Shown here piece after piece: positions 2,627 through 36,305 of a stretch of DNA of 64,000 bases. The translations under genes were made by a program, and so were the position numbers. The notes beneath the pieces are model-generated. The model saw only the letters and a program-made list of their open reading frames with translations, had not been told where the DNA came from and made no database searches. Source of the DNA: Patescibacteria group bacterium (GTDB taxonomy: Bacteria; Patescibacteriota; UBA1384; 2-12-FULL-50-11); contig JBBUAP010000001.1 in the NCBI GenBank assembly GCA_038058635.1, positions 384,771 through 448,770 of the forward strand, given 5' to 3'. Numbering within the stretch: the stretch's first letter is position 1; each line of letters starts with the position of its first letter.

Positions 2627-3383
2627 CAGCGGTTAGCAAGTTTTCGAATAAAAAACTGACTGTTAGGGGGCCGATCGCCCCTTTGGTGGGGGTAATCTTT
2701 TTGACTAGGGGTTCGATAGTTTTAACATCAACATCCAGGCCAGAGCCATCAACCACAACCATTTCCTGATGGACCATTTCTGGAGCAACTAAACCACGAA
2801 CGCCGGTGGCGGAGATTAGTAGATCGTGCTGACGGATATTTTCGGCCTGGGACTTGGCCTGCTTGGCGATAACAGTCAAAGGCCAATTGTTGGCCGCGAA
2901 AACCTTTGCCAGCGGTCCGCCGACCAACTTGCCCATACCCAAAACTACGGTTTTCAAGTCTTTTATCGCAATCTGGTGATATGACAATAAAGCCATAATG
3001 CTACTGGGGGTTGGCGAGTCGTACGGCGAGTTGCCGCTTAAATTGTCGATGTCTTTGATGGGGTTCACTTTCTGGATTAATGCCTCGGTATCTAATGATT
3101 TTGGTAGGGGCAGTTGAAGAACAATGCCGTCAATGTCTTGGCGTCGGTTGAGGCCATCGAGCATCGATTCTAATTGTTGTTGGCTGGCGGTGGGGAAATG
3201 GTGCAAGAAAAAATGACAATCCAACTTTTTGGCCATCGCTTGTTTGGCCCGGATATAGGTGGCGGTCTGCTTGTCTTCCCCCACCCAAACTAAAGCTAAG
3301 CCAGGGGAAGTTGATAGTTTTTGACGACGAGCGACTAGCTCGACAAGCCGCTGACTAAGAAGCGCCTTGGCTATCAGTTGCAT
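2610..3383 (-). CDS. folD: bifunctional methylenetetrahydrofolate dehydrogenase/cyclohydrolase
   Basis: 257 aa with DGIVLQLPLP and the GMGKLVGGPLA NAD(P)-binding region typical of FolD. Confidence 0.85.
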   Translation of the reverse strand: MQLIAKALLSQRLVELVARRQKLSTSPGLALVWVGEDKQTATYIRAKQAMAKKLDCHFFLHHFPTASQQQLESMLDGLNRRQDIDGIVLQLPLPKSLDTEALIQKVNPIKDIDNLSGNSPYDSPTPSSIMALLSYHQIAIKDLKTVVLGMGKLVGGPLAKVFAANNWPLTVIAKQAKSQAENIRQHDLLISATGVRGLVAPEMVHQEMVVVDGSGLDVDVKTIEPLVKKITPTKGAIGPLTVSFLFENLLTAAIRKS

Positions 3384-7015: not shown

Positions 7016-7094
7016 TGGCGCACTCGACCGGATTTGAACCGGCGATCTCCTCCGTGACAGGGAGGCGCTTTAAACCAGGCTAAGCTACGAGTGC
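7016..7094 (-). tRNA. tRNA-Asp (anticodon GTC), CCA encoded
   Basis: The reverse complement folds as acceptor GCACTCG/CGAGTGC, anticodon stem-loop CCTCC-CT-GTC-AC-GGAGG, T-arm GGTTCAAATCC, followed by G-CCA. Confidence 0.8.
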
Positions 7095-18520: not shown

Positions 18521-19287
18521 TTCCGCCTAACTCTTTTTAGAAGATTACCGAAGAACTGCTGGAGGGTGGTTTTTTCTAATCTTGGGCCGTGGAGGCGCCA
18601 AAAGAGTAGATAGGTAATGGCGATTAGGGCTAAATAAATCATTGCTTCGGCCCGAACAATTCCTTCACCAAAATCGGCTTTGAGGGTTTTGATTAGTAAT
18701 TCTCCCAGGAAATACGCTTCAGCAGCTAGGAAGAATATTACTCCCGGGCTAAAACGATCTTTCAGATAGATATAAAGGAGAACTCCAAAGACTATCAGCG
18801 CCCAAATGGAGCTGATCAGATCGATCGGCAGCATGCCATTAACCGCGATCCAGGATTCCGAACCTCGCCCGATCGTACAGCTAGATAACTGACAGCCAAC
18901 TTTACCGATCGCCCAGCCAACCAAGAAAGACAAACCCAAGCAATCTAAAACTTCCCAGGTCGGTTGACGGGCTTTTTTGCTGTAGCGCAAGAAGGCGACG
19001 AAGCCAATTAAAATTCCGCCCAAAGCCAGTAAACCGCCTTGCCAGAAGTAAAAGACCTGCCAGAAATTTTTAAACTGTTCTTGGTAAGTGAAATAATAGG
19101 TTAGTCGGGCGCCAACTAGAGCGATTAGAAGGGTGTAGAGGACGGTGTCAAAAAGGTGAGTCGTCCGCAGTTTGCGATATTTTAACAATCGAAAAAGTAC
19201 CAACCCAGCAATTAGCGCCCCAAGGGCGATAAATGTTCCAAACGAATATAGCTTAAACTGCCCCACCTCAAACAAAACCGGTTGCAT
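18517..19287 (-). CDS. lgt: prolipoprotein diacylglyceryl transferase-like membrane protein
   Basis: 256-aa polytopic membrane protein whose N-terminus ([28 protein letters not shown]) and overall topology resemble Lgt. The assignment is tentative. Confidence 0.45.
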
Positions 19288-19334
19288 TACTATTAAGGGT
19301 AGTAAATTAGGCTGATTTGGTCAAACTAACAATT

Positions 19335-19913
19335 TTATTTTAAGTCGTATTTAGATAACAGTTTTTTGCATGTACCGTGTATTCCTAAGTGGAAAAATCC
19401 GACAGCTACCGGTTTAAAGACAATCGGAAACCCTAAAGGTATTTCTGTGATACCAATTCCTAATGTTATATGTGGATGATAATTTGAATACGCACTATTT
19501 TCTTCAAAATTATTAACCCAATCAACAAGAGAGCTTGATTCAGACATTTCAAAAAAGTTTTCTGATGTTACTGTGCCAGCATTGTGTTTAGTAATTAAAT
19601 CAAAGACAGTATTGTGTAAATTTTGAAGATATTCACTTACCTCAAGGCTAAAATGACTATATTTACTAGAGCCTAAAGAAGTTAAGGTAATTTCGGGCAT
19701 CTCAAAGCTTTCTAATAATGATCCCAATTCTTTTTTAAAGTCATTAACATTTTCCAAAAGTAAACTTCCCATACCTAAAGTGATATGTGGATTATAGCCA
19801 TCTTCAAAAGACACAAAATCTTTTTTATCAGACCCCTTATTACATTCCTTGCAAATATTATTTATCTTTTCTGGGAGTAATAACACAACATCTATAGCTA
19901 TTTTTTCTTGCAT
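19335..19913 (-). CDS. 2H phosphoesterase superfamily protein (LigT/ThpR-like 2',3'-cyclic phosphodiesterase / 2'-5' RNA ligase)
   Basis: Two H-x-T-x motifs (HITLGMG and HITLGIG) at the spacing of the 2H fold. The gene is conspicuously AT-rich compared with flanking DNA. Confidence 0.6.
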   Translation of the reverse strand: MQEKIAIDVVLLLPEKINNICKECNKGSDKKDFVSFEDGYNPHITLGMGSLLLENVNDFKKELGSLLESFEMPEITLTSLGSSKYSHFSLEVSEYLQNLHNTVFDLITKHNAGTVTSENFFEMSESSSLVDWVNNFEENSAYSNYHPHITLGIGITEIPLGFPIVFKPVAVGFFHLGIHGTCKKLLSKYDLK

Positions 19914-19945
19914 ATTTTTTTTATTCTATTTCAGTTCCCCATCTG

Positions 19946-20017
19946 TGGGCAATGCTGGATTCGAACCAGCGACTTCTTCGATGTGAACGAAGCACTCTAC
20001 CACTGAGTTAATTGCCC
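19946..20017 (-). tRNA. tRNA-Val (anticodon CAC)
   Basis: The reverse complement folds as GGGCAAT-TA-ACTC-AGTGGTA-GAGT-G-CTTCG-TT-CAC-AT-CGAAG-AAGTC-GCTGG-TTCGAAT-CCAGC-ATTGCCC-A. Confidence 0.8.
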
Positions 20018-20067
20018 GAACTGCCCATATTTTAACCTAAATGTCATTTTAACTCTACGCAGGCGGC

Positions 20068-20637
20068 ATGACTTCCGATACAATGATACGCATGAGTCGA
20101 TTTGGCCCTTTTTGGGAAATTTTAAAAGTTGTGGTGATCGTTTTTGTCTCAGCGATGGGCATTAGGCTGTTTATCGCCCAACCTTTTATTGTCGAAGGAT
20201 CCAGTATGGAACCCGATTTCCATAACGGCGAGTATCTGTTGGTTGAAAAACTTGGCTATCATCTCCATCAACCGGCTCGAGGCGATGTGATTGTGTTCAA
20301 ATATCCCAACAATCCGTCGGTAAATTACATTAAGCGAATTATCGGTCTACCAGGCGAAACAGTACGCGTGTTTGAGAATCAGGTGTTCGTCAACGGCAAT
20401 ATCTTAACCGAGCAGTATTTGTCTCCCGAAGAAAGAACCGTCGTCAGTCAAAACCCAGAAACGCCTTATGAGGTCGCTTTGAACAGTGACCAGTTCTTTG
20501 TGATGGGTGATAATCGCCAACATTCAAGTGATTCGCGTGAGTGGGGGCCGTTAGGACGGGACTTCATTATCGGTAAATCGGCTTTTGTCCTTTACCCACG
20601 ACAGAATTTCTCTGCCATCGCCTCCCCGAGCTACTAA
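20068..20637 (+). CDS. lepB: signal peptidase I
   Basis: N-terminal TM helix, catalytic SM (EGSSMEP), and the YIKRIIGLPGETV and GDNRQHSSDSR boxes. Confidence 0.85.
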   Translation: MTSDTMIRMSRFGPFWEILKVVVIVFVSAMGIRLFIAQPFIVEGSSMEPDFHNGEYLLVEKLGYHLHQPARGDVIVFKYPNNPSVNYIKRIIGLPGETVRVFENQVFVNGNILTEQYLSPEERTVVSQNPETPYEVALNSDQFFVMGDNRQHSSDSREWGPLGRDFIIGKSAFVLYPRQNFSAIASPSY

Positions 20638-28841: not shown

Positions 28842-28872
28842 TTGACGAACAGAGAGAGAGAGAGAGTTAAAT
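28842..28872 (+). promoter_or_regulatory. sigma70-like promoter TTGACG-N19-TTAAAT whose spacer is an (AG)8 dinucleotide tract
   Basis: -35 at 28842-28847, (AG)8 at 28851-28866, -10 at 28867-28872, AAGGAGG SD at 28883-28889, ATG at 28895. Confidence 0.35.
28851..28866. repeat. (AG)8 simple sequence repeat
   Basis: agagagagagagagag read directly. Confidence 0.95.
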
Positions 28873-28894
28873 GGCAGTATTAAGGAGGTTGAAA

Positions 28895-29500
28895 ATGGAA
28901 AACGAAAAAGGCCCATCACCACAGGAAGATTTAGGTGAATCAAAGCAGGAAGTATCAGGCAGCAAACTTGAGCTTGAAGAAGGTGCAGATCAGCATGCGG
29001 AAGAGCTGCGCCGTCATCTGGATACAGAAAATTGGAGCAATTTAGATCTTATGGATTCCAAAAGCGAATTAAAGTCTTGCAACGAGGCTGTGAAGCAACT
29101 AGATGAGAACATTAGAATCATAGGATCGACACGCATCGATAGTGATCTGTTTGCATGGAAGAATGTAGGTGAACGTCAGTGGTCGCCGGATTCGGATCGT
29201 TATCGCAGGGATTATGATAGAAAACAGTATGTTAGCGAAAGTCTAGCCGAACTCGAGAAACTACGGGAAAAGCTAATAAAAGAATTGGAACACCGTCGGG
29301 ATGACTTTCAAACTCGTGCTCACTATGCGGAGGAGAGTATTGAAAAAGAGAAACTTGAAATAAAGGACCATGTAAAAGGTAAACACGAGGAAGAATTTAG
29401 CGAATTGCAGAACGCCGAGTGGAAGCCCGTCCCAGTCGAAGACGGTGCCGAACCCGCTCCCGCCGAAGACCCACCAAATACTAACGAGAAAACAAACTGA
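28895..29500 (+). CDS. hypothetical highly charged coiled-coil-like protein
   Basis: About 200 aa, E/K/R/D-rich. Strong SD. No signal peptide or known domain. Confidence 0.5.
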   Translation: MENEKGPSPQEDLGESKQEVSGSKLELEEGADQHAEELRRHLDTENWSNLDLMDSKSELKSCNEAVKQLDENIRIIGSTRIDSDLFAWKNVGERQWSPDSDRYRRDYDRKQYVSESLAELEKLREKLIKELEHRRDDFQTRAHYAEESIEKEKLEIKDHVKGKHEEEFSELQNAEWKPVPVEDGAEPAPAEDPPNTNEKTN

Positions 29501-29681
29501 CAGATCTTACTGTCAGGAAGCAACCACCGGCGAAACCTCGCCGGCGGTAGCTTCATATATCAAAATAACAATCAAAGAATCGCCACAGAGTTCTTATGTG
29601 GTATACCACATTATAACTCTGAATAATTGGAGCCACCTCGGGGAATTGAACTAGGCGCCCATACTTTACGGAGAATAAGTG

Positions 29682-29753
29682 AGCCGGAGGCGGGGATTGA
29701 ACCCGCGACTTGCTGTTTACGAAACAGCTACTCTACCACTGAGTTACTCCGGC
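29682..29753 (-). tRNA. tRNA-Thr (anticodon CGT)
   Basis: The reverse complement folds as GCCGGAG-TA-ACTC-AGTGGTA-GAGT-A-GCTGT-TT-CGT-AA-ACAGC-AAGTC-GCGGG-TTCAATC-CCCGC-CTCCGGC-T. Confidence 0.8.
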
Positions 29754-29882
29754 ATTCATCGCTTTACCACTGCCTGCCCAGCTTCAAGCGCACCGCGTGA
29801 CAGAATGTAATTCTGTAAGCTGGTAAGCTTCGGGGCTGGGAGCTACGCTAGCAACCTCTACCATTTTACCTCGATAGACCAT

Positions 29883-29922
29883 AAAAAAGAATCGCCCCCC
29901 TACCTATGGTAGTTTGGGGCGA
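29883..29922 (-). terminator. rho-independent terminator of the zinc-ribbon gene
   Basis: On the minus strand: CGCCCC(A)-[CTACC-ATA-GGTAG]-GGGGGGCG followed by ATTCTTTTTTAT. Confidence 0.5.
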
Positions 29923-30236
29923 GAGTGACGAAATTCGAGCTGAACCACCTCGGGCGGGTTGTCGCTGTCTAAGACGTCGGCGATCACATCGATTGCGTCG
30001 ACAGCGCGTCCTCTGATTTTCAACTTCCCGTTGGCCGTTGTTTTCTCCCAGGTGATTTCACACTTGGGGCAATCATAGAGTATGACACTACCGTGTTCCT
30101 TCGCAATCTGTGATCTACTGGAGTCTGGCGGAAGGGGGTTTTGATCGGCGAACTTACCGATCCTTTCCTCCTCCATCTTGGTTCCACAATTCGGGCAAAA
30201 GCATTCCATAGCGGCCTCCTCGAAAGAGCTAAACAC
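29904..30236 (-). CDS. hypothetical zinc-ribbon protein
   Basis: CPNCG...CPKC pair. Has its own terminator. Overlaps an alternative-frame ORF (30020..30256), which I judged spurious. Confidence 0.45.
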   Translation of the reverse strand: MFSSFEEAAMECFCPNCGTKMEEERIGKFADQNPLPPDSSRSQIAKEHGSVILYDCPKCEITWEKTTANGKLKIRGRAVDAIDVIADVLDSDNPPEVVQLEFRHSRPKLP

Positions 30237-30274
30237 AGCTTAGCGTTTATTGACAAAATGTCAACACGGGTGAG

Positions 30275-31042
30275 CTACTTCAGGGCTTTGCGGAAGGAGA
30301 GCATGGTGAAGGTAACGAAGACTACAAACATCCCACCGGCGGCCAGGAAGGCATAACCGATGTCTGGGCTACCCCAGCCATCTAAGACCAGCGCCCTAAT
30401 ACCTTCAATGATATGAGTGACGGGGTTGTAGTCGGTGATGGTGGCGAATGTTGACGGCAGTAACTCGCGCGGAGTTTGGGAAGTGGTTAGATATAAGAGC
30501 GGGAAGACAAGAATGAATAGCGATTGAACCAGCCGGGCATTTTGGGTTCGCAGAGCGCTAATCATACCGATACAACTCCAGGCCATCGCAAAAATGATCA
30601 GAATCGCAAATATTGCTAAGACCCCCAGGAAGCCGGACTGAATCCTCACCCCCCAAAGCAAAAGTAGGGTTAACATGATGATTCCTTGGCCCAATGATTG
30701 GACGGCGATTTCTGCTAATTTAGCTAAGACTATCGCCAAACGGTTAATTGGCATTATGATCAATTTTTTGAAATAACCACTCTGAATATCTTGAACCAAC
30801 TCAATGCCGGCATTACCAGCCGAAAAGAAAATCGCGGTAAATATTGCCACCGGCGCGATGAAATCTTTGTACGATACATCTGGGAAACCCGGGACTTGAG
30901 CGAGAGCAGAAAGCGATAGCGAGTTAACAGCAAAGAAGAAAATTGGCATAAAGAACGGTGGCAGTAACGCCAAAAGAGGCCGCCATATTAATTTGATGTT
31001 GCGGATTGAAAGGTAATACCAGTCACTGAAAAATGTATTCAT
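30275..31042 (-). CDS. ABC-2 type transporter permease
   Basis: Six-TM ABC-2 family topology. 4-nt overlap with the ATPase gene. Confidence 0.75.
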   Translation of the reverse strand: MNTFFSDWYYLSIRNIKLIWRPLLALLPPFFMPIFFFAVNSLSLSALAQVPGFPDVSYKDFIAPVAIFTAIFFSAGNAGIELVQDIQSGYFKKLIIMPINRLAIVLAKLAEIAVQSLGQGIIMLTLLLLWGVRIQSGFLGVLAIFAILIIFAMAWSCIGMISALRTQNARLVQSLFILVFPLLYLTTSQTPRELLPSTFATITDYNPVTHIIEGIRALVLDGWGSPDIGYAFLAAGGMFVVFVTFTMLSFRKALK

Positions 31043-31839
31043 GATCGTGCTCTCGTAAATGGGTCGGGAGCATTGGCGTTGACTTCTTCGTCGCCCAAAT
31101 TGCTACCAGTGGTTTTCAAGAAAACTTCTTCCATATTCTTGGCGTTATGTTTCTTCATCAACTCGGCCGGTGACCCCTCGGTGACGATCTTGCCCTTGTC
31201 CATAATCTCTATTCGGTCACAGAGTTCTTGGGCTTCGTCCATGAAGTGAGTGGTAAGGAAAATCGTCATCCCCTCTTTATTTAATTGACGCAAATGGGCC
31301 CAAATTAGCTGACGAGCGTGCGGGTCGAGACCTTGAGTTGGTTCGTCTAAGAAAAGAATTTTTGGTTTATGGATTAGCGAGAGAGCTAGGTCAAAGCGGC
31401 GACGCATACCGCCGGAGTAAGTGGAAGTAAATTTGTCGGCGACTTTTTCTAGCTCAACCAATTTCAGGAGTTTGGCAATCTGGGCGTCAATCTCTGATGG
31501 GGGCATATGATAAAGTCGGCCATGGAGCTGCATCATTTCGCGGGCGGTGGCCACTTCGTCTAAACCAACCTCCTGCATCGCGAAACCAACTCGCTTGTAG
31601 ATTTCGTCCAAGTTTTCTTCGAGTTTCAGGCCATCGATAACAACCGAACCAGAAGTTTTCTTGACTAAATTGACTAGCATATTGATGGTAGTCGTTTTAC
31701 CAGCGCCGTTCGGGCCTAAGAAACCGTAGAATTCGCCATCTTTGACGTTAAACGAAATTCCCCGGACGGCTTCGGTGCTACCAGGGTAGGTTTTGGTTAA
31801 GTTTTTGACCTCGATGATGTCAGAACTTTTTGCGCCCAT
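31039..31839 (-). CDS. ABC transporter ATP-binding protein
   Basis: Walker A GPNGAGKTT, signature YSGGMRRR, Walker B ILFLDEPT. Confidence 0.9.
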   Translation of the reverse strand: MGAKSSDIIEVKNLTKTYPGSTEAVRGISFNVKDGEFYGFLGPNGAGKTTTINMLVNLVKKTSGSVVIDGLKLEENLDEIYKRVGFAMQEVGLDEVATAREMMQLHGRLYHMPPSEIDAQIAKLLKLVELEKVADKFTSTYSGGMRRRFDLALSLIHKPKILFLDEPTQGLDPHARQLIWAHLRQLNKEGMTIFLTTHFMDEAQELCDRIEIMDKGKIVTEGSPAELMKKHNAKNMEEVFLKTTGSNLGDEEVNANAPDPFTRARS

Positions 31840-32089
31840 GTTTTAACAGTCTAGCGATGACCGCATGTAATGTAAAGGCCGCCGGCCACCTGTTTTTTGC
31901 TTGTTTTTCTAAAGAAATTAGTCCAAACATATCCTTTGGTCGTAGGTTATGCCAATGACCACCAACATAGTAGGGGTGTAGGTTGTGGTCATGATGATGT
32001 TTTGGATAGTCGGCATAGGGTCGGTTGGGTACCAGAGACACATCGGTGCGCATCCTACTTAAAGAGGCACCGGTTAAATTTAGTTCCAC
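31820..32089 (-). CDS. hypothetical His-rich small protein (GTG start), upstream of the ABC exporter genes
   Basis: 89-aa ORF with YPKHHHDHNLHPYYVGGHWH. Co-oriented with the ABC genes and overlaps them by 20 nt. Weak SD. Coding status uncertain. Confidence 0.25.
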   Translation of the reverse strand: MELNLTGASLSRMRTDVSLVPNRPYADYPKHHHDHNLHPYYVGGHWHNLRPKDMFGLISLEKQAKNRWPAAFTLHAVIARLLKHGRKKF

Positions 32090-32137
32090 CTCAACTCTAG
32101 CAAAGCACCCCGGAGATGTTCCGGGGTCTTTGCTAGT

Positions 32138-32593
32138 TTAAAGGTTACCTTTGATTTTCTTAATAATCGCCGCAGCAACATCACCGCTAACTCCCAGGCT
32201 TGTGCTTCGAGCATAGTGATGGCCGAATTCATTATCTGTAAAAACTTGACTTCCAACTTCTACTACTTTGTCGTAACGCGGTCGGACATGCCAATGAATG
32301 TGTGGATTGTAGGGCTTGGTCTGGAAAGCGTTGTTTGTCAGGCAACTCCAGTTGAAGACGATAGCTCCAAAGACAGAACGAACGGCCGTTTCATATTTTG
32401 AAATTACTTCCTGCAAATCCAACCATTCGGTGCTAGTTAATTCGGCCAAATCTCCAGTATGGCGCTTGACGGTTACGAATGATCGCCCGAGATAGTATTG
32501 ATCGCTACGGTCGAGTGAAACTCGCCAAAATTTGGTTTCGAAAATTACATCCTGATCAATTGTTAGAACCTCACAAACTTCACATTTTTTCAT
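32138..32593 (-). CDS. HIT-family (histidine triad) nucleotide hydrolase
   Basis: HIT motif NPHIHWHVRP and the N-terminal CxxC of Hint-like proteins. Confidence 0.8.
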   Translation of the reverse strand: MKKCEVCEVLTIDQDVIFETKFWRVSLDRSDQYYLGRSFVTVKRHTGDLAELTSTEWLDLQEVISKYETAVRSVFGAIVFNWSCLTNNAFQTKPYNPHIHWHVRPRYDKVVEVGSQVFTDNEFGHHYARSTSLGVSGDVAAAIIKKIKGNL

Positions 32594-32739
32594 TGAGTAT
32601 ATTTACGACTGCGCTCGAGCCTACTTTACCAAAAACTCCCAAACTAAGGAAGCCGCCCCGCCTTCGCCTCAATTCATCGAGAATCTTGCATTATGATTAA
32701 TACACCTGTCATCTAGTTGACTTTTATAAGCATTTTGCT

Positions 32740-34476
32740 ATGATAGCAGGGTATTTGAGTAATGGGTTAGGCAAAAATAATATGGCAACAATTAAACTAG
32801 CTGAAATAGCGAGAAAACTTGGAAAGTCTGCAACAGACATCTCCAGAGATACTGGTATCAATCGCAACACTATCAATGCCCTTATGAAAGGGTCTGTTGA
32901 AGATGTTAAGTTTTCGACACTAGAAAAGATTTGTAAAATTTACAATATTCAAATTTCAGACATATTAGACGATGTCGATGTTTTGAATAAACATCAGGCA
33001 AAATCAAAACAAAAAAATGTTCGCAAGTTATATAAGCAGGAAGGAGAGATAGTTCCCTTTACCTGCTGGCCTTGGGCACTCGTTGCGGGTTCATTTACCT
33101 TAAAGCGAGATGAGGAAATAATAGATTTTGGCCAGCTAGATTTGTATTTTAAAGGGGATTACGGCATTGGCTACTGGGACCTTAATTCTCTTAAAAACGT
33201 AGCAAGCACTTTTTACGCATTTTACTCTGATAAGGATAAGTACTCTAAATTGTACGGTAAATATTTATATTACTCCGCCGAGATTGAGGACATATACCTT
33301 GAATCACACGAAATCGTTTCTAGGGAGCTGGATGATGTACAGATTAGATCAATTTTTGAAAAATTAAAGTCCGCTTATAAGGGGTTCTGGGACTACAGTT
33401 TGTTTATTGACGCTTTTGATACGGGTGTTGATCAAGAAAGAATTAATCAAATTGCAAAAGAGAAAAACTTGGATAAAAAATCGGTGGAGGTTCTTACCAT
33501 GCCGGTGGAAATGACTTTTGCTGACGAAAGAAAATACGCGTTTTTGTCTCTTATCGAAGATGCTTCAATAAGTACTAAAGATGCTGAAAAGTTTTTGGGA
33601 AAAAATAAAGATGCCATAGAACAATATCGGAAAAAGTTCGATTACTACAAGTCAAATTACACTCACATCAAGCATATAACTTTAGAAGAGATGAAAGACG
33701 AAGCTAACAAATATCTTGAGGATAAATCAGTTTTCAAAGAAGAATTCAAAAAGCTTGAGCAATACGAAAAAGACAAACATAGAGAGATCGACAAAGTACT
33801 CAAAAAACTACAGCTAAAAGAAAATCCGTTGTGGTTCTTTAGTAATTTGACTTACTGGAGAGAGCATCGAAAGAAAGTAAACTTAATGGGCATTCATGCC
33901 TTAGATTTCATTCTGTCTGCAATAGAAGACAAGACGGGCATACAAAAAAAATATTTACGTTATTTAAGTTTCGACGAGGTTGATAATGTTATCAAGGGAT
34001 TAATCCCAAGCTCCACATTGGAAAATCGATATAATGAAGGTGTTTTGATTACTATTCTCGGTAATTCATATAAAATATACGAGGGGGCAGAGGCGAACTC
34101 CATTAAAAAAGATTTAGAGAATATATTGTCGGGAGAAACGAATAAGACAAAGGTTATCACCGGCCAAACTGCTTCTCAAGGATATGCTAAGGGCATAGCG
34201 CGCATCATTCTTACCCAAGAAGATTTTTCTCGTTTTAAAGATGGCGAAGTCTTGGTTACGAGCATGACAAGACCAGAATTCGTGCCACTGATGAAAAAAT
34301 CGGCAGCCATTGTCACTAATGAGGGGGGAATTACTTGTCATGCCGCTATTGTTTCAAGAGAATTGGGAAAGCCGTGTATTATTGGAACAAAAGATGCAAC
34401 TCAGATGATAAAAGATGGCGATATGGTAGAGGTTCGAGCTAATCACGGTACAGTAAGAATATTAGAAACCAAATAA
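32740..34476 (+). CDS. HTH-XRE domain protein fused to a C-terminal PEP-utilizing-enzyme mobile (phosphohistidine swivel) domain
   Basis: N-terminal XRE-type HTH (IKLAEIARKLGKSATDISRDTGINRNTINALMKG), a roughly 350-aa K/E-rich middle region of unknown fold, and a C-terminal swivel domain (GIARIILTQEDFSRFKDGEVLVTSMTRPEFVPLMKKSAAIVTNEGGITCHAAIVSRELGKPCIIG). Strongly AT-rich relative to the window. Alternative start at 32782. Confidence 0.6.
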   Translation: MIAGYLSNGLGKNNMATIKLAEIARKLGKSATDISRDTGINRNTINALMKGSVEDVKFSTLEKICKIYNIQISDILDDVDVLNKHQAKSKQKNVRKLYKQEGEIVPFTCWPWALVAGSFTLKRDEEIIDFGQLDLYFKGDYGIGYWDLNSLKNVASTFYAFYSDKDKYSKLYGKYLYYSAEIEDIYLESHEIVSRELDDVQIRSIFEKLKSAYKGFWDYSLFIDAFDTGVDQERINQIAKEKNLDKKSVEVLTMPVEMTFADERKYAFLSLIEDASISTKDAEKFLGKNKDAIEQYRKKFDYYKSNYTHIKHITLEEMKDEANKYLEDKSVFKEEFKKLEQYEKDKHREIDKVLKKLQLKENPLWFFSNLTYWREHRKKVNLMGIHALDFILSAIEDKTGIQKKYLRYLSFDEVDNVIKGLIPSSTLENRYNEGVLITILGNSYKIYEGAEANSIKKDLENILSGETNKTKVITGQTASQGYAKGIARIILTQEDFSRFKDGEVLVTSMTRPEFVPLMKKSAAIVTNEGGITCHAAIVSRELGKPCIIGTKDATQMIKDGDMVEVRANHGTVRILETK

Positions 34477-34551
34477 ATATGGAAAATCCAGAAATATTTT
34501 CGTAACCAGGCACTCTAAAAGCCTAATGGCGACGACCTGGAATGCAAGTAG

Positions 34552-34900
34552 TATCTCGGTGTCTCTGAACAGGGCATAGAATTAGCCAGGGAACGCACAG
34601 AAGGAATTGCTTTCTCTGTTCACCCGGTAACACAAGATAAAAACCAACTCATCATTGAGGCAGGATTTGGACTCGAAGAAGCCATAGTTTCGGGACAAAT
34701 TACGCTGGACAGCTGTTCGTAGAAAAACAACTGCGATGGATCATTGACATCAATATCAACGAGCAAGAAAGAGTTTTATATAGAAAAGAAAATGGTGGTA
34801 AAGAATGGATAAATTTTGGAGAAAAAGGCCAACAACAGGTATTAGATGAAACACAGATCTTAGAACTTTCGGAAATTGTCCTCGTATCGAAAAGTCTAGT
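34552..34900 (+). pseudogene. frameshifted, truncated remnant of a PPDK_N (PEP/pyruvate-binding ATP-grasp) domain gene
   Basis: Frame A (34552-34719) encodes GIAFSVHPVTQDKNQLIIEAGFGLEEAIVSGQITLDS, matching the PPDK_N consensus SGVMFT.DP.TG...I.A.WGLGE.VV.G.V.PD. After a 1-nt frame change, frame B continues FVEKQLRWIIDININEQERVLYRKENGGKEWINFGEKGQQQVLDETQILELSEIVL. There is no start, an internal stop, and no C-terminal end. Confidence 0.4.
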
Positions 34901-34904
34901 TCTT

Positions 34905-34968
34905 GAGCGGGTGAAGGGAATCGAACCCTCGTCTCAACCTTGCCCGTCCTCCGCAGTAGCAGACACAG
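34905..34968 (-). other. tRNA-like 3' fragment (T-arm + acceptor 3' strand without matching 5' half)
   Basis: The reverse complement ends GAGGG-TTCGATT-CCCTT-CACCCGC-T, a canonical T-arm and acceptor strand. Only 64 nt separate it from tRNA-Gly, and no complementary 5' acceptor (GCGGGTG) exists. Confidence 0.3.
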
Positions 34969-35039
34969 AGCGGGATACGAGAATCGAACTCGCGTATCTT
35001 GCTTGGGAAGCAAGCGCTCTACCATTGAGCTAATCCCGC
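34969..35039 (-). tRNA. tRNA-Gly (anticodon CCC)
   Basis: The reverse complement folds as GCGGGAT-TA-GCTC-AATGGTA-GAGC-G-CTTGC-TT-CCC-AA-GCAAG-ATAC-GCGAG-TTCGATT-CTCGT-ATCCCGC-T, with discriminator U73 as expected for Gly. Confidence 0.8.
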
Positions 35040-35291
35040 GCTGCAACTGCTACGGAGGGCGGGGGAAGGTTATTCGATTGTGGCTACGATGAAAGCCATA
35101 ATCGAACAATCACCCTCGATCAAATCCCGTCGGCTTGCCGAGGGGTGCCGAGGGGTGATTGATATTCTGCCATTGAACCACACCCGCAATTTGTAACCCT
35201 GTTACCTTACATGATTGTACCAGGCGGGTAAACTCACGGTGTAGTAGCGCGCTTTCTCTTACCTTCATTTTGCGTTACGCTGAAAGTAATC

Positions 35292-36305
35292 ATGGAGGGG
35301 AAGAAAGTTGTTTGTTTTGAAGTCGAGCCGTGGGAGCAAGAATTTTTGAAAGACAAGCTTCAGCATAAGGTTGAGCTAGAATTCTTTAATCACCGCCTAA
35401 CCTACGATAATATGCATGAGGCGGCTCAAGCCAACTATATCGTTTCTTTTATATACTCTGATTTCTCACACCAAGTTTTAACCCATTTACGCAACCTCAA
35501 GGGTATCGCGACGATGTCGGTTGGGGTCGACCATATTGACCTTGAAGAAGCGGAAAATCGCAAAATCATCGTCAGCAATGTTCCGGCCTACGGCCCCAAT
35601 ACTGTGGCTGAACACACGATGGCACTGCTTTTAGCGATGTCGCGCAAGATCGTTGAATCGGTCGAGCGAACGCGTGATGGAGTTTACGAATATACCGGCC
35701 TTTCTGGCTGGGATCTTTCTGGCAAAACCCTGGCCGTCGTCGGTACCGGAAAAATCGGCGCCCATGTGGCCCAAATTGCTCACGGTCTAGATATGAAGCT
35801 GATCGGTTTTGACCCACACCCAAATGTTGAACTGACCGAAAAATTAGGTTTGGAGTATATGCCATTGAATGAAGTGCTGGGAAAAGCAGATGTCATTACC
35901 GTTCATGTGCCCTTAACCCCAGAGAATAAGCATATGTTATCTACCGAGCAATTTAAGTTAATGAAAAAAGGTGTGGTTATTCTCAATACCGCTCGCGGCG
36001 GCTTAATCGACGCCAGCGCCTTGCTGACCGCCCTGGACGACGGTACAGTTGCCCAAGCCGGAATCGATGTCTTGGAAGATGAGGGCCTTCTCAAGGAGGA
36101 GAAACAGTTCTTCTCGCCGTATTTCAAGCTCAACGACTACCAAATGGCGATGGCTGATCACGCCTTAATGCGTCATCCAAAAGTTCTCTTAACACCGCAC
36201 AACGCCTTTAACAGCAAGGAGTCGATGCGAAATATTTTGAATACGACCGTCGATAACGTTGAAGGAATGGTCTCGGGCGATCCGGTCAATGTAGTCGAGG
36301 AGTAA
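35292..36305 (+). CDS. D-isomer-specific 2-hydroxyacid dehydrogenase (D-lactate dehydrogenase-like)
   Basis: NAD-binding GTGKIGAHVAQIAHGLDMKLIGFD and the catalytic R/E/H triad region (ILNTARGGLID...LTPHNA). Confidence 0.8.
   Translation: MEGKKVVCFEVEPWEQEFLKDKLQHKVELEFFNHRLTYDNMHEAAQANYIVSFIYSDFSHQVLTHLRNLKGIATMSVGVDHIDLEEAENRKIIVSNVPAYGPNTVAEHTMALLLAMSRKIVESVERTRDGVYEYTGLSGWDLSGKTLAVVGTGKIGAHVAQIAHGLDMKLIGFDPHPNVELTEKLGLEYMPLNEVLGKADVITVHVPLTPENKHMLSTEQFKLMKKGVVILNTARGGLIDASALLTALDDGTVAQAGIDVLEDEGLLKEEKQFFSPYFKLNDYQMAMADHALMRHPKVLLTPHNAFNSKESMRNILNTTVDNVEGMVSGDPVNVVEE

What the first reader, a model, noticed from the sequence alone, without database searches (positions are those of the whole stretch)
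29682..35039. Candidate horizontally acquired locus bounded by tRNA-Thr and tRNA-Gly (contains an AT-rich segment, a decayed gene and a tRNA 3' fragment)
Two minus-strand tRNAs (Thr-CGT and Gly-CCC) bracket a 5.3-kb block. Its contents differ from the surrounding housekeeping genes. They include a zinc-ribbon protein, an ABC-2 exporter pair with a His-rich small ORF, a HIT hydrolase, a strongly AT-rich HTH/PEP-utilizer gene, a frameshifted ATP-grasp (PPDK_N) remnant, and a 64-nt tRNA 3'-half lying immediately 3' of tRNA-Gly. A tRNA 3' fragment abutting an intact tRNA, combined with compositional deviation and gene decay, is the classic scar of site-specific integration at a tRNA gene followed by erosion. 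No integrase remains. This could therefore be an old, degraded island.
Basis: partly seen in the sequence, partly recalled or inferred. Interest (0 to 1): 0.6.

Follow-up and report, generated by a model that had tools for sequence, protein, structure and literature searches.

The report
tRNA gene nested inside broken tRNA
Only the AT-rich right half of the proposed island is really foreign DNA, and the "tRNA fragment" is the orphaned tail of a resident glycine tRNA gene that was split open by a tiny insertion carrying its own replacement tRNA.

Summary
The window is from a Candidatus Berkelbacteria (Patescibacteria) genome. Both tRNAs, the AT-rich segment, the HIT gene, the ABC-2 pair and the frameshifted PPDK_N remnant are real.

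The 5.3-kb block is not one island. TrmD-L25-tRNA-Thr-ABC pair-tRNA-Gly-2HADH-RpiB is syntenic in the eight relatives with long enough contigs, and the left half has normal composition.

Only 32136-34899 is variable. It holds a HIT gene and a 2.3-kb AT-rich cassette, the strongest tetranucleotide outlier in the window. The cassette is a truncated copy of a three-gene unit with 31-bp terminal inverted repeats, found intact in another genome. That unit looks like a split rifampin-phosphotransferase-type enzyme.

The "tRNA 3' fragment" is not an att duplicate. It is positions 36-73 of the resident tRNA-Gly(CCC), which is intact in relatives with 73-95% identical neighbouring proteins. Positions 1-27 and 28-35 lie upstream of the annotated tRNA.

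Two insertions split that resident gene. One is 121 nt, sits in the anticodon loop at 35/36, has inverted-repeat ends and carries the intact tRNA-Gly(CCC). The whole folds as a cloverleaf within a cloverleaf.

tRNA-Thr also carries orphan 5' and 3' pieces of older tRNA-Thr genes. The closest known analogue is phage "tRNA-dependent lysogeny", here reduced to a mini-cassette.

The parts
29630..29651 (-). Orphan 3' fragment (last 22 nt) of an older tRNA-Thr of the GCCACCT/AGGTGGC type
   Evidence: 22/22 identical to the 3' end of the tRNA-Thr of relative L007 (blastn-short E = 2e-7; sequence context).
29681..29753 (-). Functional tRNA-Thr(CGT), a replacement copy
   Evidence: ARAGORN and Rfam at 69.9 bits. 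Only 75% identical to the tRNA-Thr at the same locus in the 95% relative L075, with all stems compensated.
29840..29852 (-). Orphan 5' fragment (positions 1-13) of the L075-type tRNA-Thr, directly after the conserved upstream flank
   Evidence: GCTAGCGTAGCTC against L075's GCCAGCGTAGCTC. It is preceded by TTTTTTATGGTC.AT.GAGGTAAAAT, which is homologous to L075's upstream flank.
29904..30236 (-). Zn-ribbon protein gene; lineage-restricted but not part of the insertion
   Evidence: Weak Zn-ribbon Pfam hits. 88% aa identical copy at the same place in L075. GC 0.52.
30275..31839 (-). ABC-2 permease plus ABC ATPase: conserved syntenic core, not island
   Evidence: Pfam PF01061 and PF00005. Found between tRNA-Thr and tRNA-Gly in L003, L006-L011, L075 and L067. 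GC3 0.54-0.55.
31840..32135 (-). Conserved intergenic stretch: terminator-like hairpin, GAGTTGAGGTGGAAC motif, the 'His-rich ORF', and a TTTACA-N17-TAGACT promoter-like site before the ABC gene
   Evidence: Conserved DNA in all relatives. The reading frame is not kept. No covariation support for an RNA fold.
32138..32593 (-). HIT-family gene; variable cargo next to tRNA-Gly
   Evidence: Marginal Pfam HIT hit. Directly abuts tRNA-Gly in L005 but is absent in L075 and L003. GC3 0.40.
32595..32690 (.). Left end of the AT-rich cassette: a 68-bp end segment plus one copy of the terminal inverted repeat
   Evidence: Matches L072 3820-3887 and 3597-3634. In L072 the repeat is a perfect 31-bp terminal inverted repeat.
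32740..34476 (+). HTH(XRE) plus RPH-like substrate-binding domain plus phosphohistidine swivel domain. The likely true start is 32782.
   Evidence: Pfam HTH_26 and PEP-utilizers. 83% aa identical to L072's gene. About 118 Patescibacteria homologues. AlphaFold model with pLDDT 93.5. Best PDB matches are rifampin phosphotransferase.
34489..34883 (+). Decayed remnant: the first 45 codons of a 285-aa gene fused to aa 191-284 of the PPDK_N ATP-grasp gene, with stop codons and a frameshift
   Evidence: tblastn with the L072 proteins. blastn shows a 1.27-kb internal deletion relative to L072, and loss of the last ~100 bp and the right repeat.
34906..34942 (-). 'Exon 3': positions 36-73 of the resident (old-type) tRNA-Gly(CCC).
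   Evidence: 38/38 identity, including one flanking base, to the tRNA-Gly of L005, L075, L006, L071 and L067. It is the only orphan T-arm in the window.
34943..35063 (-). Insertion 2 (121 nt) in the anticodon loop at 35/36: inverted-repeat arms (35063-35047 and 34962-34943) enclosing the intact tRNA-Gly(CCC) at 35039-34968
   Evidence: Boundaries. Inverted repeat. The folded helix closes the inner cloverleaf. Inner tRNA scores 72.5 bits.
35064..35071 (-). 'Exon 2': positions 28-35 of the resident tRNA-Gly
   Evidence: AACCTTCC lies between the two insertions. In-silico splicing gives the exact 71-nt L005-type tRNA, which ARAGORN calls Gly(CCC).
35072..35161 (-). Insertion 1 (90 nt, two hairpins) between the D arm and the anticodon stem (position 25-27/28)
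   Evidence: -43.5 kcal/mol alone. Also present, with differences, in L077 and L063.
35162..35187 (-). 'Exon 1': positions 1-27 of the resident tRNA-Gly
   Evidence: 26/26 identical to the old-type tRNA.
35204..35232 (-). Conserved promoter-like element (-35 TTTACC, 17 nt, -10 TAAGGT; TAAAGT in relatives) upstream of exon 1. It probably also drives the inner tRNA.
   Evidence: Conserved in the window, L077, L063, L065, L075 and L005. Too weak for the strict consensus scan, so this is an inference.

Best explanation
The interval is a mosaic, not one island.

**1. Core (29754-32135).** The Zn-ribbon gene, the ABC-2 exporter pair and a conserved intergenic stretch are ancestral and syntenic.

**2. 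Variable cargo (32136-34899).**
- A HIT gene arrived first.
- A 2.3-kb AT-rich cassette then inserted between the tRNA and HIT.
- In its intact form the cassette has 31-bp terminal inverted repeats and three genes. These are an HTH-fused protein with an RPH-like substrate-binding domain and a phospho-histidine swivel domain, a 285-aa protein, and a separate PPDK_N ATP-grasp protein. Together they resemble a split rifampin-phosphotransferase-type dikinase.
- In the window the cassette has lost 1.27 kb internally and its right end. The ATP-grasp partner is dead.

**3. The tRNA-Gly locus.**
- The resident tRNA-Gly(CCC) gene was hit in its anticodon loop, between positions 35 and 36, by an element that did not rebuild the gene.
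- That element brought a complete tRNA-Gly(CCC) of its own.
- What survives of it is 121 nt: the tRNA between two 17-20-nt inverted-repeat ends.
- The replacement tRNA is probably transcribed from the resident promoter through the dead 5' half.
- A second, 90-nt hairpin insertion later landed in the dead 5' half.

**4. Generality.** The same overwriting happened at tRNA-Thr.

**Shown versus inferred.**
- Shown: the anatomy, the ancestral intact state, the series of alleles, and the foreign nature of the AT-rich cassette.
- Inferred: that a site-specific recombinase made the insertion, that a larger element was trimmed down to the tRNA, and that the outer gene is non-functional.

The confidence value of 0.6 applies to the mechanism as a whole. 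I hold the descriptive anatomy at well above 0.9.
For: **Synteny and composition**
- The ABC pair lies between the two tRNAs in eight relatives. The gap between the ABC ATPase and tRNA-Gly varies from 0.33 to 3.1 kb.
- L075 (95% relative) goes straight from tRNA-Gly to the conserved intergenic stretch.
- Composition.

**AT-rich cassette**
- About 80% nucleotide identity to L072, which has the full three-gene unit. L072's copy is also AT-rich (0.32-0.41 against 0.53 in its flank) and has different neighbours.
- Perfect 31-bp terminal inverted repeat in L072.
- Remnant mapping.
- RPH-like fold: Foldseek E = 1.6e-12 over ~580 columns, pLDDT 93.5.
- A 56% homologue sits next to a large serine recombinase, with PPDK_N and PEP-utilizer genes.

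**Nested tRNA**
- Exons of 26 + 8 + 37 nt rebuild the intact tRNA of L005, L075, L006, L071 and L067 at 71/71.
- The minimum-energy fold is a cloverleaf within a cloverleaf: -134.8 kcal/mol, z = -8.2.
- The same arrangement appears in an independent assembly (L001, 296/296).
- Diverged copies of the 5' part occur in L077, L063 and L065.

**Decay series**
- L004 has the window's inner tRNA (54/54) behind a decayed old 5' half. L076 has the same layout with another tRNA variant.
- L003/L081-84 and L085 have other tRNA-Gly variants followed by an old-type 3' scar.
- L067 and L006 have an intact old-type tRNA followed by two tandem scars.

**Other support**
- tRNA-Thr has orphan 5' and 3' pieces.
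- Precedent: integration that disrupts a host tRNA and is complemented by an element-borne tRNA of the same isotype (PMC10865867).
- Environmental viral contigs carry tyrosine-integrase-attP modules whose attP is a tRNA-Gly 3' half starting at the anticodon loop. Its last 30 nt are identical to the old type.
Against: **No recombinase and no larger element**
- No integrase or recombinase lies within +-10 kb.
- Nothing larger than 121 nt remains of the presumed element.
- Reducing an element to just the tRNA needs deletions that end within 5-7 nt of it on both sides.

**Junctions**
- The junctions share at most 1 nt (C). That fits neither a 6-8-bp tyrosine-recombinase overlap nor, cleanly, a 2-nt serine-recombinase crossover.

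**No donor found**
- Viral-contig scans found none of these: the inner tRNA, the inverted-repeat arm, the predicted circular junction, the window's tRNA-Thr, or the cassette's terminal repeat.

**Outer exons look conserved**
- Outer exons 1+2 show 0/34 differences between the window and L063. The flank and inserts show 23/154 events (Fisher p = 0.007).
- This is unexpected for an old pseudogene.
- The test is weak. L063 was first found with an exon-1 pattern, and the L077 comparison is not significant (p = 0.13).

**AT-rich cassette**
- It has no target duplication and only one repeat copy in the window, so its own insertion mechanism is unknown.
- The left repeat in L072 sits at a contig end.
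Confidence: 0.6

Rival explanations
1. The whole tRNA-Thr to tRNA-Gly block is one old island that integrated at a tRNA gene by a classical integrase. The fragment next to tRNA-Gly is the duplicated att site.
For: - AT-rich, decayed genes lie next to a tRNA.
- The tRNA-Gly 3' end is a real integration hot spot in this clade, with tandem 20-nt scars in L006 and L067.
- Viral int-attP modules exist for this tRNA-Gly 3' half.
Against: - The left 2.4 kb is syntenic in all relatives and compositionally normal.
- The fragment is not a repeat of the adjacent tRNA's 3' end (the two tRNAs are 68% identical).
- The fragment abuts the tRNA instead of marking the far end of the island.
- Its missing 5' parts lie upstream of the annotated tRNA.
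- Only 'CTCAA' recurs at the distal end of the AT-rich segment.
Confidence: 0.04
2. The nested arrangement is a working composite gene.
- One transcript yields the inner tRNA through RNase P and RNase Z.
- The two insertions are removed like introns, so the outer tRNA-Gly is also matured, or at least serves as a folding or processing scaffold.
- The 121-nt inverted-repeat unit may be a self-contained mobile 'tRNA mini-cassette' that homes to the anticodon loop of its own isoacceptor.
For: - The fold is a near-perfect cloverleaf within a cloverleaf. The insertion's arms extend the outer anticodon stem coaxially into the inner acceptor stem (z = -8.2).
- The outer exons are 71/71 intact.
- Exons 1+2 are unchanged (0/34) between the window and L063, while the flank and inserts changed at 23/154 (p = 0.007).
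- The insertion site 35/36 is the site used by self-splicing introns in Patescibacteria tRNAs (PMC13011429).
- No promoter-like site lies in front of the inner tRNA.
Against: - There is no group I core: no Rfam hit at E <= 1 over 27-38 kb, or at E <= 10 over the ins2/inner-tRNA stretch 34850-35060.
- C35, not U, precedes the site.
- The predicted helix has no bulge-helix-bulge geometry.
- No bacterial enzyme is known to excise such inserts.
- Both tRNAs have the same anticodon, so the outer one is redundant.
- In L004 and L076 the old 5' half has visibly decayed. In L003 and L085 it is gone. That is as expected if it is dispensable.
- The selection test is weak and partly affected by how L063 was found.
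Confidence: 0.13
3. No site-specific element was involved. DNA from related Berkelbacteria strains is repeatedly patched in by homology-facilitated or illegitimate recombination. Short tRNA and flank similarities serve as anchors, and the imprecise joins leave pieces of the old genes. This would apply to the tRNA genes with short native flanks, and perhaps to the ABC pair.
For: - Five or more different tRNA-Gly(CCC) sequences and three tRNA-Thr types occupy the same syntenic sites among genomes with 84-100% identical neighbours.
- Break points vary: 13/14, 26-28 and 35/36.
- Allele distribution disagrees with 2HADH identity. Nested alleles occur at 100, 98 and 93%; intact alleles at 95 and 90%.
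- The ABC pair is 82-86% nucleotide identical to L006, whose flanking genes are 69-72%.
- The inner tRNA's short flanks (GTAGCAG, CTGTGT) resemble native Berkelbacteria tRNA-Gly flanks.
Against: - Illegitimate joins would not be expected to produce 17-20-nt inverted repeats that exactly abut both junctions and extend the anticodon stem.
- An insertion exactly in the anticodon loop, the classical crossover site of tRNA-targeting integrases, is hard to credit to chance.
- No extended flank homology accompanies the inner tRNA.
Confidence: 0.2
4. Assembly artefact: a chimeric join of two strain variants of the tRNA-Gly locus.
For: Several short contigs from related strains break inside or next to the inner tRNA (L002, L004, L063, L065, L077).
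Against: - The full 296-nt arrangement is identical in a second, independent assembly (L001, 115.9-kb contig).
- The 5' part recurs with sequence differences in three other samples.
- A chimera would not create complementary arms or a 90-nt hairpin insert.
Confidence: 0.02

Closest known systems
tRNA-dependent lysogeny of actinobacteriophages (Guerrero-Bustamante & Hatfull 2024, PMC10865867)
   Same: - Integration into a host tRNA gene, commonly at the anticodon loop in mycobacteriophages, does not rebuild the tRNA.
[quoted passage not shown]
   Different: - Here there is no prophage and no integrase: only 121 nt remain.
- The replacement tRNA sits right at the junction, nested in the broken gene.
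- The ends are 17-20-nt inverted repeats, and no ~10-bp common core is visible.
- The host is a CPR bacterium.
- The same thing is seen at a second tRNA (Thr) and as a series of alleles.
Classical tRNA-targeted genomic islands and prophages, in which attP carries the tRNA 3' half (as summarised in the introduction of PMC10865867)
   Same: - The tRNA-Gly locus is a hot spot with variable cargo on its 3' side.
- Orphan tRNA 3' ends occur (L006, L067, L003, L085).
- Viral int-attP modules for this 3' half exist.
   Different: - The fragment in the window is not a duplicate of the neighbouring tRNA's 3' end.
- It does not bound the AT-rich cargo.
- The tRNA was not reconstituted as a hybrid but replaced wholesale.
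Group I introns at position 35/36 of Patescibacteria tRNA-Asn and tRNA-Asp (Nakagawa et al. 2026, PMC13011429)
   Same: Same phylum, same unusual insertion point (35/36) in the anticodon loop, and the outer gene is missed by standard tRNA finders.
   Different: - No group I core was detected.
- The insert is only 121 nt and consists of a tRNA plus a helix.
- C rather than U precedes the site.
- A second insert lies at position 26-28.
Rifampin phosphotransferase (RPH-Lm; PDB 5fbs, 5hv1, 5hv2)
   Same: The AT-rich gene's model matches RPH over its substrate-binding and C-terminal His-swivel domains. The partner ORF is the PPDK_N ATP-grasp domain.
   Different: - The enzyme is split into separate ORFs.
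- An N-terminal XRE-type HTH is added, along with a 285-aa partner of unknown family.
- The substrate is unknown.
- The ATP-grasp partner in the window is destroyed.

Membership tests
Classical tRNA-integrated genomic island | Integrase or recombinase gene at one end | tested here: not met
   The precomputed Pfam list for all genes within +-10 kb shows none. Pfam scans of the block's own genes show none.
Classical tRNA-integrated genomic island | Direct repeat of the target tRNA's 3' end at the distal boundary | tested here: not met
   The inner tRNA-Gly has no second partial copy. Only 'CTCAA' recurs at the HIT junction. The fragment belongs to a different tRNA-Gly sequence.
Classical tRNA-integrated genomic island | Absent from close relatives, with deviant composition | tested here: inconclusive
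   Met for 32136-34899. Not met for 29754-32135, which is syntenic and has normal GC.
tRNA-dependent-lysogeny-type disruptive integration | Host tRNA gene interrupted at the junction and not reconstructed | tested here: met
   Exons 1-3 flank the insertion. The intact allele exists in L075, L005, L006, L071 and L067.
tRNA-dependent-lysogeny-type disruptive integration | [quoted passage not shown] | tested here: met
   The inner tRNA-Gly(CCC) scores 72.5 bits and lies inside the 121-nt insert.
tRNA-dependent-lysogeny-type disruptive integration | Tyrosine integrase and a prophage body between attL and attR | tested here: not met
   The insert is 121 nt with no ORF. Viral-contig scans for its parts found nothing.
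tRNA-dependent-lysogeny-type disruptive integration | Short common core repeated at both junctions | tested here: inconclusive
   Only a 1-nt ambiguity (C) at the junctions. The junctions differ in L063 and L077 (TTCC|TCCACCC).
Group I tRNA intron | Group I ribozyme core | tested here: not met
   Rfam scans gave only the tRNAs: E <= 1 over 27-38 kb and E <= 10 over 34850-35060, which holds ins2 and the inner tRNA.
Group I tRNA intron | U at the 5' splice site pairing with G in P1 | tested here: not met
   The base before the insert is C35.
Archaeal-type spliced or split tRNA | Bulge-helix-bulge motif at the exon-insert junctions | tested here: not met
   In the predicted fold both junctions lie in one 2x1 internal loop. 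There are no 3-nt bulges separated by 4 bp.
Archaeal-type spliced or split tRNA | Splicing endonuclease and ligase in the genome | not testable with these tools
   Only a 64-kb window of the genome is available.
Rifampin-phosphotransferase-like dikinase | Phosphohistidine swivel domain (PF00391) | tested here: met
   E = 9e-25. PDB sequence hits to PEP synthase and RPH.
Rifampin-phosphotransferase-like dikinase | ATP-grasp (PPDK_N) domain | tested here: not met
   Encoded by a separate ORF in L072 (E = 1.6e-96). In the window only aa 191-284 remain, with a frameshift.
Rifampin-phosphotransferase-like dikinase | RPH-type substrate-binding domain | tested here: inconclusive
   Foldseek E = 1.6e-12 over ~580 columns, but TM is only 0.28-0.34 because of domain rearrangement. 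The substrate is unknown.
Transposon or MITE with terminal inverted repeats (AT-rich cassette) | Terminal inverted repeats, target-site duplication and a transposase | tested here: inconclusive
   A perfect 31-bp repeat in L072, with one arm at a contig end. The window keeps one arm only. No duplication and no transposase were seen.

The most novel reading that the evidence does not exclude
The 121-nt unit (inverted-repeat arm, tRNA-Gly(CCC), inverted-repeat arm) may be a previously undescribed kind of miniature mobile element. Its only cargo is a tRNA. It would home into the anticodon loop of the resident tRNA of the same anticodon and take over that gene's promoter.

In a stronger form, the cloverleaf-within-a-cloverleaf transcript is processed so that the outer tRNA is also matured. 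That would be an intron-like tRNA-in-tRNA in a bacterium.

The parallel remnants at tRNA-Thr, and the five or more tRNA-Gly alleles among close relatives, would then reflect ongoing 'selfish tRNA' turnover in CPR genomes.
Probability: 0.15. Interest if true: 0.85.

Novelty: new variant of a known kind. Interest (0 to 1): 0.6.

Why it matters
- **Reading tRNA fragments.** A tRNA fragment next to an intact tRNA need not be an att duplication. Here it marks a resident tRNA gene overwritten in place by an insertion that brings its own replacement.
- **Reach of a known strategy.** If the mechanism is right, the 'disrupt and complement' strategy known from mycobacteriophages also operates in ultra-small CPR bacteria. 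There it can be whittled down to a promoter-less 121-nt tRNA cassette.
- **Annotation.** Essential tRNA genes in these streamlined genomes turn over quickly, with five or more tRNA-Gly and three tRNA-Thr sequences at fixed syntenic sites. Standard tRNA finders report only the inner gene. tRNA-based island finders would mis-set island borders.
- **The cargo.** The AT-rich cassette is a split, HTH-fused relative of rifampin phosphotransferase that is widespread in Patescibacteria. This gives a concrete family to test for small-molecule or antibiotic phosphorylation.

Tried and rejected
**Rfam**
- Permissive scans (E <= 1 over 27-38 kb; E <= 10 over 34850-35060) score only the T-arm of the fragment, at 7.8 bits to tmRNA.
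- There is no group I intron and no riboswitch.

**ARAGORN**
- Intron mode does not call the outer tRNA, even with insertion 1 removed.
- It calls the outer tRNA only after both inserts are removed in silico.

**Strict sigma-70 and terminator scan of 34400-35320**
- Nothing was found.
- The promoter assignment therefore rests on conservation only.

**Viral-contig scans (all zero)**
- Inner tRNA, inverted-repeat arm, AT-cassette terminal repeat, the window's tRNA-Thr, predicted circular junction.

**tblastn of the HTH-PEP-utilizer protein against phage and plasmid records**
- Only distant swivel-domain or RPH-like matches.

**PADLOC**
- No convincing defence-system match for any gene of the block.

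**'His-rich ORF' region as a structured RNA**
- RNAalifold gives -4 kcal/mol and no covariation beyond the terminator hairpin.
- It is not kept as one ORF either.

**Recovering the 3' side of the nested allele from other strains**
- The ABC ATPase anchor and the 2HADH anchors returned only intact or L003-type alleles.
- Exon 3 and the right arm are therefore known only from the window and L001.

**tRNA-Thr as a conservation control**
- I expected tRNA-Thr to be conserved. It turned out to be replaced too.

**Fold of the tRNA-Thr region**
- It is not significantly structured (z = -1.65), so tRNA-Thr is not nested in the same way.

Full report
**Source and basic check**

The window is from a Candidatus Berkelbacteria (Patescibacteria/CPR) genome. 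Exact protein look-ups and genome-collection matches place it there.
- ARAGORN and Rfam confirm tRNA-Thr(CGT) at 29681-29753(-) and tRNA-Gly(CCC) at 34968-35039(-).
- Window GC is 0.483 (sd 0.032 in 1-kb windows). Segment 32501-34500 has GC 0.365 and is the strongest tetranucleotide outlier (z = 4.95).
- The HTH/PEP-utilizer gene has GC3 0.36 and HIT has 0.40. The Zn-ribbon gene, the ABC pair and the flanking housekeeping genes have 0.50-0.61.
- Pfam supports the ABC-2 permease, the ABC ATPase, a marginal HIT domain, and HTH_26 plus PEP-utilizers.

I used the 2-hydroxyacid dehydrogenase (2HADH) next to tRNA-Gly as an anchor. It retrieved relatives with 65-98% identical orthologues.
- In every relative with a long enough contig the order is TrmD - Zn-ribbon - L25 - tRNA-Thr - ABC-2 permease - ABC ATPase - tRNA-Gly - 2HADH - RpiB - RPE - transketolase.
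- The 110-aa Zn-ribbon gene is present at 88% identity in the 95% relative L075.
- So 29754-32135 is not an island.
- What varies is the gap between the ABC ATPase and tRNA-Gly, from 0.33 to 3.1 kb.
- L075 runs from tRNA-Gly ('...CCCGCTCAAGAA') straight into the conserved intergenic stretch ('TAGCAAAGGCCCC...'). The window has 2.76 kb (32136-34899) between exactly these two sequences.
- L005 (90%) has the HIT gene abutting the tRNA ('CCCGCTCAAA|ATGAAAAAATG') with nothing in between.
- HIT is therefore older variable cargo. The AT-rich segment inserted later, between the tRNA and HIT.

**The AT-rich segment (32595-34899)**

Its 578-aa ORF (probably 564 aa, starting at 32782) belongs to a family of about 118 Patescibacteria proteins of ~560 aa.

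The closest homologue (83% aa) lies on contig L072. There it heads a three-gene unit: HTH/PEP-utilizer protein, a 285-aa protein without a Pfam family, and a 320-aa PPDK_N ATP-grasp protein.
- The window matches L072 at about 80% nucleotide identity.
- It lacks L072 positions 1952-3221, the last ~100 bp of PPDK_N, and the right end.
- The remnant maps as aa 5-45 of the 285-aa gene with two stops, then PPDK_N aa 191-227, then aa 230-284 in another frame.
- In L072 the unit is bounded by a perfect 31-bp inverted repeat. The window keeps the left copy at 32653-32690, plus a 68-bp end segment that reaches the HIT start codon.
- L072's copy is also AT-rich (0.32-0.41) relative to its flank (0.53), and the flank encodes unrelated genes.
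- A 56% homologue (L080) sits with PPDK_N, two PEP-utilizer ORFs and a histidine phosphatase, next to a large serine recombinase. Two other homologues sit among ordinary genes.

An AlphaFold model built on 91 homologues (pLDDT 93.5) matches Listeria rifampin phosphotransferase best. Foldseek gives E = 1.6e-12 to 3e-10 over ~550-580 aligned columns.

My reading is that the unit encodes a split RPH-type dikinase. ATP-grasp, substrate-binding and His-swivel parts lie on separate proteins, and an HTH is added, probably for autoregulation. In the window the unit is crippled because the ATP-grasp gene is destroyed. The substrate is unknown.

**The tRNA fragment**

Aligning the tRNA-Gly region with relatives gave the key result. 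The fragment's tRNA-like part (34942-34906) is identical to positions 36-73 of the tRNA-Gly(CCC) of L005.
- The same 'old-type' tRNA is intact in L075 (95%), L071/L062 and L006/L067 (73%).
- Its first 26 nt (positions 1-27) are also in the window, upstream of the annotated tRNA at 35187-35162.
- Positions 28-35 (AACCTTCC) are at 35071-35064.
- Joining the three pieces in silico gives the 71-nt old-type tRNA exactly, and ARAGORN calls it Gly(CCC).

The resident gene is therefore interrupted twice.
- **Insertion 1** is 90 nt with two hairpins, at position 25-27/28.
- **Insertion 2** is 121 nt, between anticodon positions 35 and 36. It consists of the annotated, intact tRNA-Gly(CCC) (72.5 bits) between two arms. 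These are CCCGCCCTCCGTAGCAG and CTGCTACTGCGGAGGACGGG, which are inverted repeats.
- The inner tRNA is only 68% identical to the old type.

The 296-nt region folds at -134.8 kcal/mol (z = -8.2). The fold has the outer acceptor, D, anticodon and T stems, the two hairpins, and a rod that runs from the outer anticodon stem through the arms into the inner acceptor stem.

The arrangement is identical in a second assembly (L001). Its 5' part recurs with differences in L077, L063 and L065. It is not an artefact.

**Allelic series**

| State | Loci (2HADH identity to window) | Evidence |
|---|---|---|
| Intact old type | L075 (95%), L005 (90%), L071/L062 (90%), L006/L067 (73%) | |
| Nested | window (100%), L063 (98%), L077 (93%), L065 | |
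| New tRNA behind a decayed old 5' half (hairpin in the D-loop at 13/14, small deletions) | L004 (90%), carrying the window's inner tRNA at 54/54; L076 (95%), with another variant | |
| New tRNA directly after the promoter flank, followed by an old-type 3' scar | L003/L081-84, L085 | |
| Intact old-type tRNA followed by two tandem scars | L006, L067 | |

- A conserved promoter-like element (TTTACC-N17-TAAAGT) lies upstream of the outer exon 1 in all these alleles.
- No promoter-like site precedes the inner tRNA. I infer that the inner tRNA is read from the resident promoter.

**tRNA-Thr shows the same thing**

I meant to use tRNA-Thr as a conservation control. It is only 75% identical between the window and L075, with fully compensated stems. 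The window carries:
- after the conserved upstream flank, the first 13 nt of the L075-type tRNA-Thr (29852-29840);
- then an 86-nt hairpin-forming insert;
- then the functional tRNA;
- and, 29 nt downstream, the last 22 nt of a third tRNA-Thr type (29651-29630, 22/22, E = 2e-7).

L011 shows a similar 5' remnant.

**Mechanism**

The closest described process is tRNA-dependent lysogeny. [quoted passage not shown]

Environmental viral contigs also carry integrase-attP modules whose attP is a tRNA-Gly 3' half beginning at the anticodon loop. Its last 30 nt are identical to the old type. These have an encoded CCA, so they come from other hosts.

My proposed sequence of events is:
1. An element of this kind hit the resident tRNA-Gly.
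2. Everything but its now-essential tRNA and its recombination-site arms was lost.
3. The dead halves of the old gene are decaying at different rates in different lineages.

This is an inference, and several observations do not fit it well.
- No recombinase or larger parent element was found.
- The junctions share at most one base.
- Trimming an element down to within 5-7 nt of the tRNA on both sides is a tall order.
- The outer exons look conserved: 0/34 differences against 23/154 in the flank and inserts between the window and L063 (p = 0.007). The comparison with L077 is not significant, and L063 was first found with an exon-1 pattern.

I therefore keep two live rivals.
- **A functional composite or self-contained mobile tRNA mini-cassette.** The site 35/36 is where Patescibacteria group I introns insert (PMC13011429). 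But there is no ribozyme core, C35 is the wrong base, and there is no bulge-helix-bulge.
- **Strain-to-strain recombination without a dedicated recombinase.** This is supported by the variable break points, by allele distributions that disagree with neighbouring-gene identity, and by an ABC pair that is 82-86% nucleotide identical to L006, where the flanks are 69-72%.

**Verdict**

- There is a decayed, horizontally acquired, AT-rich segment at a tRNA hot spot. It is 2.3-2.8 kb, not 5.3 kb.
- The tRNA fragment is not an att scar. It is one third of a resident tRNA gene that encloses its own replacement.
- I rate this a new variant of a known kind, with moderate-to-good interest.

Noticed in passing
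window 29630-29651 and 29840-29852 (-): Orphan 3' (22 nt) and 5' (13 nt) pieces of two different older tRNA-Thr genes flank the functional tRNA-Thr(CGT). tRNA-Thr sequences at this syntenic site differ by 25-34% among close relatives.
   Followed up: yes
window ~18750-20500, next to tRNA-Val(CAC) at 19945-20017(-): A second AT-rich outlier (GC 0.35-0.39, tetranucleotide z 2.9) lies beside a tRNA. By eye, one ORF is a membrane protein that looks Lgt-like, and a 192-aa ORF has two HxTLG motifs like a LigT-type 2H phosphoesterase. It may be another tRNA-adjacent insertion.
   Followed up: partly
window 30275-31839 (-); L006, L067, L075: The ABC-2 permease is 98% aa identical even in L006/L067, whose TrmD, L25 and 2HADH are 73-78%. 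At DNA level the ABC pair is 82-86% identical to L006, against 69-72% for the flanks. The ATPase family is 75-80% conserved across Patescibacteria, and some sources label members as Armatimonadota. This suggests strong constraint, lateral exchange, or both.
   Followed up: partly
window 31840-32135 (-): A conserved ~290-nt stretch lies between tRNA-Gly/HIT and the ABC ATPase. It has a covarying terminator-like hairpin, an invariant GAGTTGAGGTGGAAC motif, a CATCATCAT tract (the 'His-rich ORF') and a TTTACA-N17-TAGACT site just before the ABC start codon. It is neither a stable ORF across relatives nor supported as a folded RNA.
   Followed up: partly
window 35188-35291, compared with L075 7428-7916, L076, L077, L003, L005: Relatives carry a ~160-aa gene of unknown family between tRNA-Gly and 2HADH. 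The window has only 104 bp there, which is a further indel at this hot spot.
   Followed up: no
L006 9177-9300 and L067 8832-8990: An intact old-type tRNA-Gly is followed by two tandem scars that each end in the 20-nt GATTCCCTTCACCCGCTCAA. Phosphoribosyltransferase-like and methyltransferase-like genes (my reading of the translations) come next. This points to repeated events at the same site.
   Followed up: partly
L068 (Ga0209542_10055640) ~2870-2942: In another genome, the first 26-27 nt of a tRNA-Gly are followed by 23 nt and then a complete, different tRNA-Gly(CCC). The break is at about the same position as insertion 1.
   Followed up: no
L080 2139-8731: A 56% homologue of the HTH/PEP-utilizer protein sits in a cluster with PPDK_N, two small PEP-utilizer ORFs and a histidine phosphatase. 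The cluster is directly next to a Resolvase plus Zn_ribbon_recom (large serine recombinase) gene pair.
   Followed up: no
L089 2392-3883 and L090 11600-12811 (IMG/VR contigs): Tyrosine integrase genes lie immediately upstream of a tRNA-Gly 3' half that starts at the anticodon loop. These are classical int-attP modules. The last 30 nt equal the Berkelbacteria old-type tRNA-Gly.
   Followed up: partly
window 7016-7094 (-): tRNA-Asp(GTC) is 79 nt long with the anticodon at position 37, so it has an enlarged D region. Not examined.
   Followed up: no
window 28871-29500 (+): A 209-aa Glu/Lys-rich ORF between L25 and tRNA-Thr has no detectable counterpart in relatives. L075 has a different 129-aa ORF there, so this side of tRNA-Thr is variable too.
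   Followed up: no
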